Assembly (NCBI GenBank): GCA_000004985.1
Contig: GG738855.1
Strand: one strand, 5' to 3'
From: Naegleria gruberi
Lineage: Eukaryota
Length of the DNA stretch: 64,000 nt
In this document: positions 14,904-23,320 of the stretch, piece after piece
Numbering within the stretch: position 1 is the stretch's first letter
Layout of the letters: each line of letters begins with the position of its first letter
Notes under the pieces: model-generated
Databases searched by the model: none
Seen by the model: only the letters and a program-made list of their open reading frames with translations
What the model was told of the DNA's origin: nothing
Program-made: the position numbers and the translations under genes

Positions 14904-16384
<1,481 letters not shown>

Positions 16385-17684: not shown

Positions 17685-18831
17685 TTATTCATCTTGTTGT
17701 TCTGCCAAGTATGAGTACATGTATTTGTAATTCTTATCTTCAGTGTAGGAGGCATATTGATTTTCCTTAGAAATCAAAGGTAGATCAACACTATGGTAGA
17801 GGACTGCAGAATTTTTAGTGTTATATCCAACATCAAAATTACTCCACAATAAGGCCTTTCGTTCTTCTTCACTTCTTCTAAAGTATTCTCTCACAGAATC
17901 TCTGATTACTGATTGTACATAGTTGAGTGGAGCCAACTTGTAATAGTCCTCCAAGTTAACCCATTTGCACCTACTGAGCTCTCTCTCATCCATTGTAATC
18001 TTTCTACTCTTGGCTTTCAATAAACACAAAAAGTAAAAATCAGATTTTCCAAATCTAAAGCCAAACATGTGACGGAAACCAAATATGCCAACAAACTCAG
18101 CCTTTACTCCAGTTTCTTCAAAAACTTCTCTGATAGCACCATCTCCGATATGTTCATCTGGATTATCAACACTTCCACCTGGTACTTTCCAATGATAATC
18201 ATCTGTAGCTCCTTTTGGCTTTCTCATTTGGTGTCTTTCACAACAGAGCAAAATTTGATTTTTGGCAAAGTCAATAACAATACCTCCTGAGATTATTTTC
18301 AACATTAAAATTTCAATAATAAATGATTTAAATAATGAATATATGAAGAAATGAAAACATACCTGCACCAACATAGTGTTGACAATATCTTGGAATTTTG
18401 TTTGTGTCAACTGGGTTGTATACATCAGGCAACCATCTTGTCAACATGAGCAAGTCTCCATCAGTGTGATGAAGTTTAAATTCGAATTTTTTCAATAATA
18501 TTGGAATATATTCGGAATAATCTGTATGAACATAAACCCAAACACCTCTTCTCTTCTTATGAATCCAATATTGAATTGAATTTTTCATCAACTCTTCAAA
18601 ATTATCAATTACCGCATCAAGTGTAACATTCACTCCTGAATATCTATCCCAATTACCATTCACTATTTCTAGAGATTGTTCATTGTTTTCTTCTTTAATT
18701 TTGACAGTTTCAATTCGGAAGGAAAATTTAGGTCTATTATCACCTTCACCACATGTTGTTGCTATTGTAATAGAGGTGCTATTGTTAATTTCACTGTGGG
18801 AAGCAGTGGTAGGGTTATTGTTTGCAATCAT
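17685..18831 (-). CDS. Nudix hydrolase, NUDT6-like (N-terminal domain plus Nudix fold); join(18831..18363,18286..17685)
   Basis: The Nudix box GGSVDNPDEHIGDGAIREVFEETGV is present. ORFs 18328..18831 and 17685..18425 join through a 76-nt GTATGT..CAG intron to give ...QHYVGAGGIVIDFAKNQILLCCER.... Total 1071 nt = 357 codons. Confidence 0.75.
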
Positions 18832-19102: not shown

Positions 19103-20617
19103 ATGAACAATATCACATCATCATCAACCTATTCGGGAAGACGATTAGTTGGATTAATTTCAATCCTCAAGACAACAAGGTTTTTCCGATCATCATCAAC
19201 ACCATTATCATCCTCCAAAACAATAATAGGAATAAATCAAAATTATCATACATTTGAATTTAAATTAAATACGACCTATGGCCAACAACAACAATATAAT
19301 TATCATACCTCTGTAATTCATAATTTGACCAATGATGCCAATAGTATGAAACGATATTTGGCAAAGAAGAAGACAAGTGTGGAGGCCTTGATCGCATCTA
19401 GCAAAATAACAGACGCTCTGAAATTATTCTATGAATCATCATCACCAAAACGTAGAGATGCAGAGCGTTTGATACTTTCCGAAAGTTTATCCTTTGAAGA
19501 GATCTTGGCTGTCTATTATCATATTAAACAGAAATGTGGAATTGATGAGAAGATTATTGCTGCCATGTTAAGTGTCGGTAAAGACAGAAAGTATCCTGAG
19601 AGGGACAAAATTCTCGATGATATATATGATTATATCATGTCTCTCCCATTAGGAGAGAAGAATAGTATGAATGCATTCAAATGGAATACTATTCTTTTTC
19701 AATTTAGTGATGAATCTTCAATCTTCAATACTCAGAGAGCTTTGAATTTATTGAATAGATCGGATGAATTTGGAGCTACTCCATCAAAATATGTTATTGG
19801 ACGCTTACTTCTTGCTTGTACCAATAGTGAAATGTACAAGTCAGTTATTGATATATTTTCCAAATTGGAAAAGTATCACATTAAGCCAGATATTATTCAT
19901 TACCATTATTATATCAAAGCATTGGCCAAGATGAAATATGTAAGCCTTGCCTTGGATACTGTTAAAAAGATGGAATCTCTAAACCTCAAACCAGATGGTT
20001 TTATTTACTCTACTCTCATATCAATGTGTGGAGAGATGAAACAAATAGATATCGGAAAGCAACTTCACAAAACTGTAAAGGAGAAGGGATTGTCTAATAT
20101 TTACATCAACACCTCACTCATACACATGTATTGTGGATTTGGTATGCTTGATGAAGCTTCTGAAATATTTTACAATCTGGAGAAGAAGGATCTTGCAGCT
20201 TGGAATGCCATTATTCATGGCTATGGAACAAATAATCAACCTCAGAGATCCCTTGAGCTCTTCCAAGAAATGCAAGAGCTCAAAGTTGCACCAGACAATC
20301 AAACATTTGTTTGTCTCTTGGATGCATGTAGTGTTGGAGGACTTTTAGTTGAAGGTTTCCAAATGTTTAGATCTATGGAAAGAGAATACCATATTATACC
20401 CGACATTAGACATTATGGTTGCATGATAAAACTACTGCTACATGAAAATGAGTATCATTTGTGCTTGCAACTTTTCAAAGAAATGAAGAGTAAAAAGATT
20501 GAGACCGATCAAACCATTCAAAAGTTAGTTTTAAAGAAGATGCAAGATGATCCAGAAGCCGAAGAATTGCTTGCTTTTATGGATTCTGCAGAAAATTTTC
20601 ACAAGGGAGAAGCATAG
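19103..20617 (+). CDS. Pentatricopeptide repeat protein with plant-like PLS/E-type motifs, organelle-targeted
   Basis: 504-aa single ORF. The N-terminus is S/T/R-rich and presequence-like. Its repeats closely match plant PLS-class P/L/S and E1/E2 motif consensus, which I reproduce from memory as e.g. ALIDMYAKCGSLEDA / VVSWNAMISGYAQNG / ALELFRQMQ / PDEVTF / LSACSHAG / HYGCMVDLL. The matching segments here are NTSLIHMYCGFGMLDEASEIFYNLEKKDLAAWNAIIHGYGTNNQPQRSLELFQEMQELKVAPDNQTFVCLLDACSVGGLLVEGFQMFRSMEREYHIIPDIRHYGCMIKLL. There is no DYW domain; the stop at 20617 is followed by the next gene at 20699. Confidence 0.75.
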   Translation: MNNITSSSTYSGRRLVGLISILKTTRFFRSSSTPLSSSKTIIGINQNYHTFEFKLNTTYGQQQQYNYHTSVIHNLTNDANSMKRYLAKKKTSVEALIASSKITDALKLFYESSSPKRRDAERLILSESLSFEEILAVYYHIKQKCGIDEKIIAAMLSVGKDRKYPERDKILDDIYDYIMSLPLGEKNSMNAFKWNTILFQFSDESSIFNTQRALNLLNRSDEFGATPSKYVIGRLLLACTNSEMYKSVIDIFSKLEKYHIKPDIIHYHYYIKALAKMKYVSLALDTVKKMESLNLKPDGFIYSTLISMCGEMKQIDIGKQLHKTVKEKGLSNIYINTSLIHMYCGFGMLDEASEIFYNLEKKDLAAWNAIIHGYGTNNQPQRSLELFQEMQELKVAPDNQTFVCLLDACSVGGLLVEGFQMFRSMEREYHIIPDIRHYGCMIKLLLHENEYHLCLQLFKEMKSKKIETDQTIQKLVLKKMQDDPEAEELLAFMDSAENFHKGEA

Positions 20618-20698: not shown

Positions 20699-23320
20699 AT
20701 GTCCTCAAAACCTATATTACTCACCATCAAGGTTCTTGGAGGAGAGTCTGTAAAAAAGATTGCCATCAACCCTGATGAAACTGTACAACAATTATTTGAC
20801 AAACTTTGCGAAAAGTTAAATATTACTGAAACGAAGTATTTTGGAATTTGCGAACAAATCTTTGATGATCTTAACGCACCTCTTGGTAAGTGTTTGATTT
20901 GATGGATCTAAAGACTGTACTAACACAACATTAGATCGTTTCTTGGACTTTGAAAAGACTGTGGAGGCTGAAGGAGTAACTGAATTATCAGAGCTTAAAT
21001 TTCAGGTTAAACATATCAAAAGACCTAAAGCATTCTCAGATCCTATTGCTGAGGAGTTATTCTTCAAGCAAATTCAATCTAATATTGTAAATGAAGTATA
21101 TCCATGCCCTGAAAAACTTGCAGTACTTCTTGCATCACTCACTGTACAAATACTATTCGGTAATCATAATGCTAGTAAGCACCGAGTTGGTTACTTGAAG
21201 TAAGTACCTTTTTATTTAATTGGATCTTCTAATTTTAGTATAGTAAGGTGGGATTGAACGTTTTTCTCCCTAGAACAGTCTCAAGGCATGATTATGCTTA
21301 CTGGCAAGAACGTTTATTCAACTTGCACACATTACATGACGGTCTCACAAAGAGAGAAGCCATGAGAAAATATATTGACACAGCCTCAACAATACCTTAT
21401 TTCGGAATGTCCTTCTTTGAAGTTAAGGATGATGGAAGTACAGAATTACTTCTTGGAGTGTCTGAGGATGGAGTCTTTTTCTTCAATTCACAAAATTTAA
21501 AGCTTGTACACTCAGTCCCATTCGAAATTATCTCTTCCTGGCAAATAACTGATGATGGAGTTGATGTATCTTTTGAAGAAAAAGAAGAAAGCCACACTAT
21601 TTCAATTGTAACAACACCACTCAAACAACAAATGATTCTTTCATTGATTGATGAATATTATGCACTCTTGCCAGAGAGTTATAAGAGCGATCAAAAGAAG
21701 CCAAACAATTCTAAGCCATTCTTGTTGAATGATTCTAAGATGTATTTAGATCCTGTACAAAGGGTTTTCCTAGGTAGATTTGGAAGTAGATTAGAGTATC
21801 TCAAGGGATATTATATGGAATGTTGTGCTTTGGGAAAGGAAGTTCCTGTCAGAAAATTCTGCCATGCCATTGACAAAATAATAGATCAAGAACAGGTTTA
21901 CAAAGATGTTGATCTCTCCAAGTCAAGTATTACTGATAGTAATGTCACCATTTTTACAAAGTCATTCCTAAAGGCTTTAGAATACAAGCCAGAAAAGAGT
22001 TTCCCATGGAAAGAGAATGTTGATATTGAAACAATCAATATGGAAGGAAACAATATTAAGAATGGTCTTTCATGTGTTTTAGACTTGTTGAGACAATTAA
22101 AGAAACTCAAGAGTTTTAACCTTTCTGGATCCCCAATTGGGGATGATGGAACTGTTGATCTCTCACAATCTTTAACAGTTGCTTCCGATATTAGATCTCT
22201 TAGTTTAAATGATTGCCGTATTGGAAATAAGGGTTTACAATCATTATTTGAAACCCTCAAGTGGAAAAAGAATCTTACTGTCCTAGATATTGGAAGAAAT
22301 GATTTCAATGGGCAACACATGTTAGATTTTGGAAAGTTTTTGGAAGGCAATTTATCTATTGTTGAATTGAATCTTTCCAACAATGCCAGTATTGATCAAA
22401 AAGGTCTCGAAACCTTATTAAAGTCTTTGGAAAATAACAAGAGATTGCAAATTTTGGATTTGAGTGGTATCAATATTGGACCAAAGGGAGGAGTCAAAGT
22501 AGCAGGACTTTTAGAGGTTAATCATAATATTAAATCTCTCACGCTAAGAGATACTAAGATTGGAACAGATGCCTTCTTGAAAATTGGAAGAGCCTGTAGA
22601 ACAAATTTTATAATTGAAAGCCTCGATCTAGGAAACAATCAAATTGGTAAAGGGGCAGACAAACCAACTGCTAAGGAAGCTTGTTTATTCTTAACTCAAC
22701 CAAATACTGGTATTAAGAAATTAATTCTTGATGACAATCAATTAGACTATGGATTTGGTGAGATGATTTCAGAGTGTTTGATAAACAACAAGACGCTTGA
22801 ATATCTCAATATTTCAGGAAATAACATTACTAAGAATGGATCCATTCATGAAAACTGGGGAGAGTCTATTAGAAAGTGTCAAATTAAGCACCTCAATTTT
22901 TCAAGATGCTCCCTCAAATCTGCAGCATATTTGGATATTCTTTCATCAGCTTCTTATAATCAAGGTGTTCAAGAGTTGATTTTATCTGAAAATGAGCCTA
23001 GGGAAGGTCTAAAAGGTGTGGAAGCCTTCTTGGCTAAATCACAAGTCAAACTTCTCGATTTGAGAAAAGTCAAAATGAATGATAATGTTTTCAACAAGAT
23101 TGGACTTGCACTTCAGGGTAATTCCTGTTTAGAAACTTTGGATGTCTCTGAGAATGAAATTACCAAAGATGGAGCATTGGATTTCCTCAATAACTTCTCC
23201 AACAAGAATTCTACACTTAAAACTCTAGTATTGAAATTTAATCCAATCCCAGAATCTGAAAGAGCCAATGTTGCTAAAGCCATTCTCGATCAAACTTGTA
23301 TTGAAAATGTTACCTTGTAA
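20699..23320 (+). CDS. FERM domain protein fused to ribonuclease-inhibitor-type leucine-rich repeats; join(20699..20885,20935..21199,21244..23320)
   Basis: Three exons joined by 49- and 44-nt GT..AG introns, totalling 2529 nt = 843 codons. The N-terminal ubiquitin-like FERM lobe is ILLTIKVLGGESVKKIAINPDETVQQLFDKLCEKLNITETKYFGICEQ, followed by a middle lobe and a PH-like C lobe (YFGMSFFEVKDDGSTELLLGVSEDGVFFFNS). Beyond that are about 12 RNI-like LRRs (LSGSPIGDDGTVDLSQSL..., LNDCRIGNKGLQSLFETLKWKKNLTVLDIGRNDF...). Confidence 0.65.

What the first reader, a model, noticed from the sequence alone, without database searches (positions are those of the whole stretch)
19103..20617. Plant-like PLS/E-type pentatricopeptide repeat protein in a non-plant genome
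The repeat units match the PLS-class consensus that I associate with land-plant organelle C-to-U RNA-editing factors (L2/S2/E1/E2-like: ...LIHMYCGFGMLDEA..F..EKKDLAAWNAIIHGYGTNNQPQRSLELFQEMQE..PDNQTFVCLLDACSVGGLLVEGFQMFRSM..YHIIPDIRHYGCMIKLL). They do not match the generic P-type PPRs seen in most eukaryotes. Outside plants, PLS/DYW PPRs are known only from a few protists, for example heteroloboseans and some amoebozoans. This copy lacks a DYW deaminase domain: it stops at 20617, 81 bp before the next gene. That suggests an E-type factor that would need a DYW partner in trans. Its presence predicts organellar RNA editing in this organism and is a strong phylogenetic marker.
Basis: partly seen in the sequence, partly recalled or inferred. 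Interest (0 to 1): 0.6.

Follow-up and report, generated by a model that had tools for sequence, protein, structure and literature searches.

The report
Naegleria PLS-type PPR protein without deaminase
This is a real gene for a plant-like (PLS-class) RNA-binding repeat protein, but the DNA comes from the amoeboflagellate Naegleria gruberi, where such proteins and the mitochondrial C-to-U RNA editing linked to them were published in 2010-2011, so it is a known curiosity and not a discovery.

Summary
Window 19103..20617 (+) is an intact 504-aa ORF. The quoted peptide is aa 339-445, and the next gene starts 81 bp after the stop codon.

The C-terminal half has the land-plant PLS pattern: P(35)-L1(34)-S1(31)-P1/P2(35)-L2(36), then an S2-like motif. 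Class-specific HMMs give L2 38.3 bits here, against at most 5.8 bits in plant P-class controls. The best solved-structure match by sequence is a synthetic plant PPR-DYW protein (E 1.6e-80).

The "E-type" label is not supported. No E1, E2 or DYW signal was found in the protein, and no E/DYW-coding sequence anywhere in the 64 kb. The 35-aa tail scores no better against E1 than shuffled versions of itself.

The window is Naegleria gruberi NEG-M nuclear DNA; three other ORFs are exact matches to EFC proteins. According to Fu et al. 2014, this heterolobosean has 11 DYW-type PPR proteins and two verified mitochondrial C-to-U sites. The predicted editing and DYW partners are therefore already documented.

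The gene is public only as a 202-aa fragment (EFC47230.1). New here are the full-length model, a presequence-like N-terminus, and the DYW-less "pure PLS" architecture.

It is most likely a non-catalytic mitochondrial RNA-binding factor. Interest is low.

The parts
19103..20617 (+). Complete intron-less ORF, 504 aa plus TAG stop: PLS-class PPR protein of Naegleria gruberi
   Evidence: ORF; PPR families, E 1e-25 to 1e-30; organism
19103..19237 (+). aa 1-45, presequence-like N-terminus (6 R/K, 0 D/E, 17 S/T). It lies within aa 1-90, which the model predicts as disordered. Mitochondrial targeting is inferred, not tested.
   Evidence: composition; pLDDT <50 for aa 1-90
19373..19672 (+). aa 91-190, about four degenerate helical hairpins that continue the solenoid. 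No Pfam match. Conserved in the only ortholog-like sequence, P0001.
   Evidence: helices 93-187; no family for aa 1-259; 64% identity to P0001
19673..19786 (+). aa 191-228, P-like PPR motif with a 3-aa insertion (AFKWNTIL...). Code residues are N (position 5) and S (last).
19787..19891 (+). aa 229-263, 35-aa PPR motif with an L-like first helix (LLLACTNSEMY). Its class is not resolved.
19892..19996 (+). aa 264-298, 35-aa P motif (generic P model 8.1 bits, P1 3.0 bits). Code residues H/D.
19997..20098 (+). aa 299-332, L1 motif, 34 aa (GFIYSTLISMCGEMKQIDIGKQLH...). L1 13.2 bits against P 9.0 bits; BLOSUM score against the L1 consensus 63, against P 37.
20099..20191 (+). aa 333-363, S1 motif, 31 aa (IYINTSLIHMYCGFGMLDEASEIFYNLEKKD). 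S1 27.7 bits against P 19.6 bits. Code residues T/D.
20192..20296 (+). aa 364-398, P1/P2 motif, 35 aa (LAAWNAIIHGYGTNNQP...). P1 41.6 bits, P2 33.8 bits, generic P 13.6 bits. Code residues N/D.
20297..20404 (+). aa 399-434, L2 motif, 36 aa (NQTFVCLLDACSVGGLLVEGFQMFRSMEREYHIIPD). L2 38.3 bits against L1 9.9 bits. This is the most diagnostic PLS marker: the L2 model reaches at most 5.8 bits in P-class plant controls.
20405..20509 (+). aa 435-469, S2-like motif. The first helix is typical S2 (IRHYGCMIKLL, 8.9 bits). The second half is P-like and the motif is 35 aa long instead of 32.
20510..20614 (+). aa 470-504, C-terminal tail. It forms one more predicted helical hairpin (470-480, 484-495) at the position plant proteins give to E1, but it has no E1/E2 sequence signal.
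   Evidence: helices; no E1/E2; positional alignment to E1 only
19889..20494 (+). Extent of the only public gene model, EFC47230.1 / XP_002679974.1 'predicted protein, partial', 202 aa = aa 263-464 of the ORF

Best explanation
This is a native nuclear gene of Naegleria gruberi. It encodes a short PLS-class pentatricopeptide-repeat protein of the 'pure PLS' subgroup: about eight recognisable PPR motifs ending in P-L1-S1-P2-L2-S2-like, with no E1/E2 motifs and no DYW cytidine deaminase. It belongs to the plant-like PLS/DYW PPR family already described for this organism.

Shown here: the ORF, the motif classes and lengths, the absence of E/DYW, the organism, a continuous alpha-solenoid model, and one conserved relative.

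Inferred: the protein is imported into the mitochondrion through its basic, acid-free, Ser/Thr-rich N-terminus. There it binds a specific single-stranded stretch of a mitochondrial transcript, one nucleotide per motif, through position 5 and the last residue of each motif. Lacking any catalytic domain, it most likely acts as a passive adaptor or barrier (transcript end definition, stabilisation, processing or translation). This matches the few characterised plant PLS-subgroup proteins, which act in splicing and rRNA processing, with one also influencing editing. It is less likely to be an editing enzyme or an obligatory editing specificity factor.
For: - ORF and PPR family membership.
- PLS motif typing: the best PDB sequence match is the synthetic PPR-DYW 9kfx (1.6e-80), with query 295-449 aligned to L1-S1-P2-L2-S2 of the chain.
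- Class-specific HMMs built from plant hits: S1 27.7, P1 41.6 and L2 38.3 bits, against 19.6, 13.6 and about 5 bits for the competing P-type (P/P1/P2) models.
- The L2 model reaches at most 5.8 bits in P-class controls.
- Motif lengths are 35-34-31-35-36.
- Absence of E/DYW.
- Organism and native status: exact matches of neighbouring ORFs to N. gruberi EFC47224, EFC47227 and EFC47358. The gene's own partial model is EFC47230.1. GC 0.341 and GC3 0.315 fall within the range of the neighbours. The flanking genes are ordinary eukaryotic genes: cyclophilin, NUDIX, FERM-LRR, tubulin, SNAPC1.
- Structure: the AF2 model has 12 consecutive helical hairpins over aa 91-495 (pLDDT mostly 80-97), and its Foldseek top hits are RNA-bound designer PPRs and PLS/DYW PPRs.
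- Constraint: P0001 is 64% identical over 256 aa with a single 2-aa indel, including the non-consensus N-terminal hairpins. Three of the four comparable code-residue pairs are identical.
- Presequence-like composition of the N-terminus.
- Plant PLS-subgroup precedents (PDM1/SEL1, PGL12, PpPPR_9, PpPPR_31) act in splicing and rRNA processing, with PDM1/SEL1 also influencing accD editing: PMC9459714.
- Naegleria has 11 complete DYW proteins for two known sites: PMC4202320.
Against: - No experimental or transcript evidence for expression, localisation or RNA target was available.
- No targeting predictor was run; the presequence call rests on composition only.
- One plant PLS-subgroup protein (PDM1/SEL1) does influence editing, so an editing-related role is not excluded.
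- No ortholog surfaced from N. fowleri or N. lovaniensis. This may mean the gene is young or dispensable.
- I could not read Knoop & Ruedinger 2010, Ruedinger 2011 or Schallenberg-Ruedinger 2013. Whether this exact gene was already catalogued is unknown.
Confidence: 0.6

Rival explanations
1. The protein is an editing specificity factor that binds upstream of a mitochondrial C-to-U site and recruits a DYW deaminase from another protein in trans.
For: - It is PLS-class, the class tied to editing.
- N. gruberi has DYW proteins and two C-to-U sites (PMC4202320).
- The plant PLS-subgroup protein PDM1/SEL1 influences accD editing (PMC9459714).
- The tail occupies the E1 position and is predicted to be a helical hairpin.
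Against: - No E1/E2 signal was found. As far as I know (established plant literature, not tested here), the plant factors served by a DYW domain in trans are E/E+ proteins that keep these motifs.
- There are 11 complete DYW proteins for only two known sites, so there is no evident need for a split factor.
- With about eight motifs, few of them carrying a canonical code, the array is short for a site-specificity factor.
Confidence: 0.2
2. It is a decaying remnant: a truncated paralogue of a Naegleria DYW-type gene that lost E1-E2-DYW and is drifting without function.
For: - The architecture stops where E1 would begin, and the S2 motif and tail are degenerate.
- No ortholog was found in other sequenced Naegleria species.
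- The public annotation could model only a fragment.
Against: - The 1,512-bp ORF is intact in AT-rich DNA (GC about 0.34), where stop codons arise easily by chance.
- It has a presequence-like N-terminus and a confidently folded solenoid.
- A relative is 64% identical, with conserved non-consensus N-terminal hairpins and almost no indels.
- The gene sits compactly between expressed-looking neighbours, with normal intergenic spacing.
Confidence: 0.12
3. It is plant DNA contaminating the assembly, or a very recent transfer, and not a resident protist gene.
For: All distant homologs are land-plant PLS proteins.
Against: - The ORF lies inside a 613-kb N. gruberi scaffold, between Naegleria genes that match GenBank exactly.
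- Its GC and GC3 match the neighbours.
- Identity to plant proteins is only 24-36%.
- The N-terminal 260 aa have no plant counterpart.
Confidence: 0.01

Closest known systems
DYW-type PLS PPR proteins of Naegleria gruberi (Knoop & Ruedinger 2010; 11 genes according to Fu et al. 2014, PMC4202320)
   Same: Same organism and the same plant-like PLS repeat class, with a P2-L2-S2 block. Mitochondrial RNA is the presumed substrate.
   Different: This protein has no E1, E2 or DYW deaminase and has a short repeat array. I could not obtain the 11 sequences, so direct paralogy was not tested. It shares too few 5-residue words with anything in the protein collection other than its own fragment and P0001.
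Land-plant 'PLS subgroup' PPR proteins without a C-terminal extension (Arabidopsis PDM1/SEL1, rice PGL12, Physcomitrium PpPPR_9 and PpPPR_31; PMC9459714)
   Same: Same architecture: P-L-S triplets ending after S2, with no E/DYW and with organellar targeting. They are non-catalytic RNA-binding factors.
   Different: No orthology: identity to plant proteins is only about 24-36% and confined to the repeats. The characterised plant members act mostly on group II intron splicing. To my recollection the Naegleria mitochondrial genome has no such introns; this was not checked here.
Land-plant E-class editing factors (for example CRR4-type and E+ proteins that use DYW1, DYW2 or MEF8 in trans)
   Same: PLS array without its own deaminase.
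   Different: Those proteins keep recognisable E1 and E2 motifs (Pfam PF20431), and this one does not.
Synthetic consensus PLS proteins (PDB 9kfx PPR-DYW; 5iww PLS9-PPR)
   Same: These are the best sequence matches among solved structures (1.6e-80 and 2.1e-54). The alignment is motif by motif through L1-S1-P2-L2-S2.
   Different: They are designed consensus proteins. 9kfx continues into E1-E2-DYW, where the query ends.

Membership tests
PPR superfamily | Tandem 31-36-aa helix-turn-helix repeats matching PPR profiles | tested here: met
   Pfam PPR_2 6.8e-30, PPR 1.3e-25, PPR_3 1.5e-18; TIGR00756 1.1e-30. The AF2 solenoid has PPR structures as its top Foldseek hits.
PLS class of PPR proteins | Alternating P (35 aa), L (35-36 aa) and S (31-32 aa) motif variants in that order | tested here: met
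   P 264-298 (35 aa), L1 299-332 (34), S1 333-363 (31), P1/P2 364-398 (35), L2 399-434 (36), S2-like 435-469. The class-specific HMM scores favour the L1, S1, P1 and L2 models over generic P.
PLS class of PPR proteins | Terminal P2-L2-S2 triplet with the L2 signature (..ACSHAGLV.EG...F.SM...Y.I.P) and the S2 signature (.EHYGCMVDLL) | tested here: met
   L2 38.3 bits against at most 5.8 bits in P-class controls. The HYGCMIKLL first helix matches S2. The second half of S2 is atypical: P-like and 3 aa longer.
E subclass (E1/E2/E+) of PLS PPR proteins | E1 and E2 motifs after S2 (Pfam PF20431 / PF20430) | tested here: not met
   No PF20431 or PF20430 hit at E<=1 on the whole protein or at E<=10 on the tail. 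The home-made E1 HMM gives -0.9 bits on the tail, and 94 of 500 shuffles score at least as high; the E2 HMM gives no score. The only links are a positional alignment to E1 and a predicted hairpin.
DYW subclass of PLS PPR proteins | C-terminal DYW cytidine-deaminase domain (PF14432; HxE and CxxC zinc ligands) | tested here: not met
   No PF14432 hit. tblastn of a plant E1-E2-DYW region against all 64 kb gives nothing better than E=5. Only 81 bp separate the stop codon from the next gene.
Organellar (mitochondrial) PPR proteins | N-terminal targeting presequence and mitochondrial localisation | tested here: inconclusive
   The first 45 aa have 6 R/K, 0 D/E and 17 S/T, and are predicted to be disordered. 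This is compatible with a presequence, but no predictor or experiment was available.
C-to-U RNA editing factors | Binds 4 nt or more upstream of an edited cytidine; loss abolishes editing at that site | not testable with these tools
The code residues obtained (N/S, G/D, H/D, S/N, T/D, N/D, V/D, G/D) are too few and too non-canonical for a target prediction.

The most novel reading that the evidence does not exclude
This DYW-less, E-less PLS protein could be the RNA-recognition half of a split editing complex that arose independently in a protist, working with one of the 'surplus' Naegleria DYW proteins. It would be a non-plant counterpart of the plant E-class/DYW1-DYW2 arrangement, and could help explain why Naegleria has 11 DYW proteins but only two known editing sites.
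Probability: 0.1. Interest if true: 0.5.

Novelty: already known. Interest (0 to 1): 0.2.

Why it matters
Plant-like PLS/DYW PPR proteins in Naegleria are a classic case in the debate over ancient horizontal gene transfer versus deep ancestry of organellar C-to-U editing. That story has been published since 2010-2011, so this window adds no new principle.

The modest additions are:
- A complete 504-aa gene model, where GenBank holds only a 202-aa fragment.
- Evidence that the Naegleria PLS family includes at least one member with no E/DYW extension, which matches the little-understood plant 'PLS subgroup'.

This would be useful to anyone cataloguing the Naegleria mitochondrial RNA-processing machinery, or reconstructing how the transferred or ancestral PLS family diversified after its arrival.

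Tried and rejected
- Exact look-up of the 504-aa product in the gene-position index: not on record. The same was true for P0001 and for the 202-aa public fragment, so no genomic context of relatives could be fetched.
- Three word-indexed homology searches (full length; PLS core plus tail; profile of the N-terminal half with P0001) and one exhaustive HMMER search. Only P0001 and the protein's own fragment are close. Everything else is land-plant PLS proteins, whose high scores come from summing many repeats.
- 'E1 relic' idea. BLASTP and MAFFT place the tail opposite plant E1 (AEELLAF-MDSAENF against AEKLLQLEPDKAENY), but the E1 HMM score is no better than for shuffled tails. I rejected it as unsupported by sequence. 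The tail's second helix weakly resembles the second helix of an S2/P motif instead (5.4 bits, above all 500 shuffles).
- DYW or a second PPR gene elsewhere in the window: none.
- Contamination or recent transfer: rejected on the flanking genes and on GC3.
- Primary papers (Ruedinger 2011, Schallenberg-Ruedinger 2013) were requested by DOI and PMC id but are not held. Knoop & Ruedinger 2010 was cited only through other papers and was not requested. Searches for the accession numbers and for SRR3989338 found nothing.
- PPR-code target prediction: abandoned. Too few canonical code pairs, and no mitochondrial sequence was available.
- Limit of the class-HMM control: the P1, P2, S1 and L1 models cross-react with some nominally P-class plant proteins. 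Only the score differences within a motif and the L2 and S2 models are truly discriminating.

Full report
**Observation.** The window holds a single uninterrupted ORF at 19103..20617 on the + strand, 504 aa, starting with ATG. The TAG stop is at 20615-20617 and the next gene's ATG is at 20699, so the intergenic gap is 81 bp as stated. Pfam and NCBIfam identify PPR repeats with E-values of 1e-25 to 1e-30.

**Which kind of PPR.** Four lines of evidence show that the C-terminal half is PLS-class and not generic P-class.

- Among all PDB chain sequences the best match is the synthetic plant PPR-DYW protein 9kfx (E 1.6e-80). Query 295-449 aligns without register shifts to its L1-S1-P2-L2-S2 block. 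The PLS9 designer protein 5iww comes next, and the P-type designer proteins follow.
- I scored each repeat against the consensus motifs printed in that alignment. Each repeat scored best against its expected motif: L1 for 300-333 (63, against 37 for P), S1 for 333-362 (50 against 44), P1 for 364-397 (93 against 53), L2 for 401-433 (77 against 38), and the S2 first helix for 435-445.
- I built class-specific HMMs from motif instances harvested from the plant hits, a small home-made version of PPRfinder.

| Query residues | Best class model (bits) | Competing models (bits) |
|---|---|---|
| 333-363 | S1 27.7 | P 19.6 |
| 365-398 | P1 41.6, P2 33.8 | P 13.6 |
| 401-434 | L2 38.3 | L1 9.9; P1/P2 about 5 |
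| 300-325 | L1 13.2 | P 9.0 |

  In a control on eight P-class plant proteins the L2 model never exceeded 5.8 bits, S2 never exceeded 12.4 and E1 never exceeded 3.7. The P1, P2, S1 and L1 models do cross-react there, so L2 and the within-motif score differences are the discriminating evidence.
- The motif lengths are 35-34-31-35-36, which is the PLS rhythm. A MAFFT alignment with ten short plant E-class proteins lines up the whole block column by column.

**What is missing.** Pfam finds no E_motif (PF20431), Eplus_motif (PF20430) or DYW_deaminase (PF14432). This holds at E<=1 on the whole protein and at E<=10 on aa 435-504 alone. The home-made E1 and E2 HMMs find nothing in the tail.

BLASTP and MAFFT do place the 35-aa tail opposite plant E1, and AlphaFold predicts one more helical hairpin there, at 470-480 and 484-495. 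However, the tail's E1 score (-0.9 bits) is equalled or beaten by 94 of 500 shuffled tails. I therefore treat the 'E1 relic' idea as unsupported.

A tblastn of a plant E1-E2-DYW region against the whole 64 kb gives nothing better than E=5. The only PPR-coding DNA in the window is this ORF.

In plant nomenclature the protein is therefore a 'PLS subgroup' member, not E-type. Its last motif is also atypical. It has an S2 first helix, but its second half is P-like and it is 35 aa long.

**Rest of the protein.** The AF2 model has mean pLDDT 76, with 80-97 over aa 100-470. Residues 1-90 are disordered and residues 91-495 form one continuous solenoid of 12 helical hairpins. Foldseek against the PDB returns RNA-bound designer PPRs, 9kfx, 5iww, PPR10 and mitoribosomal PPR proteins.

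Residues 91-190 match no Pfam family but fold as hairpins. The first 45 residues contain 6 R/K, no D/E and 17 S/T. This is the composition of a mitochondrial presequence, but it is an inference, not a test.

**Organism and context.** Three other ORFs in the window are exact matches to Naegleria gruberi NEG-M proteins EFC47224, EFC47227 and EFC47358, on a 613-kb scaffold. The exhaustive search recovered a 202-aa protein 100% identical to aa 263-464: EFC47230.1 / XP_002679974.1, 'predicted protein, partial [Naegleria gruberi]'. The gene is therefore public, but only as a fragment.

Neighbours are ordinary eukaryotic genes: cyclophilin, NUDIX hydrolase, a FERM-LRR protein, a tubulin and SNAPC1. 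The ORF's GC (0.341) and GC3 (0.315) sit within the neighbours' range. It is a resident gene and not contamination.

**Relatives.** The only close relative across 5.8 billion protein clusters is P0001. It is a 297-aa fragment assembled from run SRR3989338 and is 64% identical over 256 aa with a single 2-aa indel. The similarity covers the non-consensus N-terminal hairpins, and three of four comparable specificity-residue pairs are identical.

All other hits are land-plant PLS proteins at 24-36% identity. No ortholog from other sequenced Naegleria species and no Naegleria DYW paralogue surfaced. The suggested phylogeny could therefore not be built with these tools.

**Comparison with what is known.** Fu et al. 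2014 (PMC4202320) summarise the primary work. [quoted passage not shown] 2011). Those authors favour horizontal transfer from early land plants. They also note that DYW proteins far outnumber known sites, which suggests additional roles.

Manna et al. 2013 (PMC3753752) note that none of the Naegleria PPR proteins has been functionally characterised.

For the DYW-less architecture, the closest known kind is the small plant 'PLS subgroup'. PDM1/SEL1 affects accD editing and trnK/ndhA splicing. Rice PGL12 acts in 16S rRNA processing and ndhA splicing. Physcomitrium PpPPR_9 and PpPPR_31 are mitochondrial splicing helpers (PMC9459714).

**Mechanism.**

- Shown: a PPR solenoid of the RNA-binding type, with no catalytic domain.
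- Inferred: mitochondrial import, sequence-specific binding of a single-stranded mitochondrial RNA segment, and action as a passive adaptor or protective cap in transcript processing, stabilisation or translation.

I put about 0.6 on this reading. That model is weakened by the missing E motifs and by the surplus of complete DYW proteins.

I put about 0.12 on a functionless truncated paralogue. Arguments against it are the intact 1.5-kb ORF in AT-rich DNA, the presequence-like N-terminus, and the conserved relative. Contamination gets about 0.01.

The readable code residues (N/S, G/D, H/D, S/N, T/D, N/D, V/D, G/D) are too few and too non-canonical to name a target.

**Verdict.** This is a real, correctly spotted feature. 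The PLS call is right, the E-type call is wrong, and the biological implication has been in the literature since 2010-2011. The residual novelty is a full-length gene model and the note that the Naegleria PLS family includes an E/DYW-less member. I could not read the primary Naegleria PPR papers, so I cannot say whether this particular gene was already listed there.

Noticed in passing
window 19889-20494 versus 19103-20617: The public gene model EFC47230.1 / XP_002679974.1 ('predicted protein, partial', 202 aa) covers only the middle of an intact 504-aa ORF. The N-terminal 262 aa and the C-terminal 40 aa, including the stop codon, are missing from the annotation.
   Followed up: yes
window 20699-23320 (+): The downstream gene encodes a FERM domain (FERM_N, FERM_M, FERM_C) fused to RNI-type leucine-rich repeats. 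It is spread over three ORFs separated by two short introns that start with GTAAGT, at about 20886-20933 and 21200-21240.
   Followed up: partly
window 17685-18831 (-): A NUDIX hydrolase gene appears as two overlapping minus-strand ORFs: Nudix_hydro domain at 18328-18831 and NUDIX domain at 17685-18425. This implies an intron or a frameshift between them. The gene is divergently oriented to the PPR gene, with about 270 bp between the two start codons.
   Followed up: no
window 15128-16384 (+): A tubulin-family ORF begins with TTG, and its match starts at position 23 of the Pfam Tubulin profile. Its true first exon probably lies upstream.
   Followed up: no
P0001 (protein from run SRR3989338; no DNA available): The only close relative of the PPR protein in the protein collections is a 297-aa fragment from an unidentified sequencing run. 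It is 64% identical and cut exactly at the L1/S1 border. It presumably comes from another Naegleria-like heterolobosean. No ortholog from N. fowleri or N. lovaniensis surfaced.
   Followed up: partly
window 1-64000: No tRNA genes were found in the whole 64 kb (ARAGORN). GC content is uniform at 0.31-0.37, with no compositional island around the PPR gene.
   Followed up: yes
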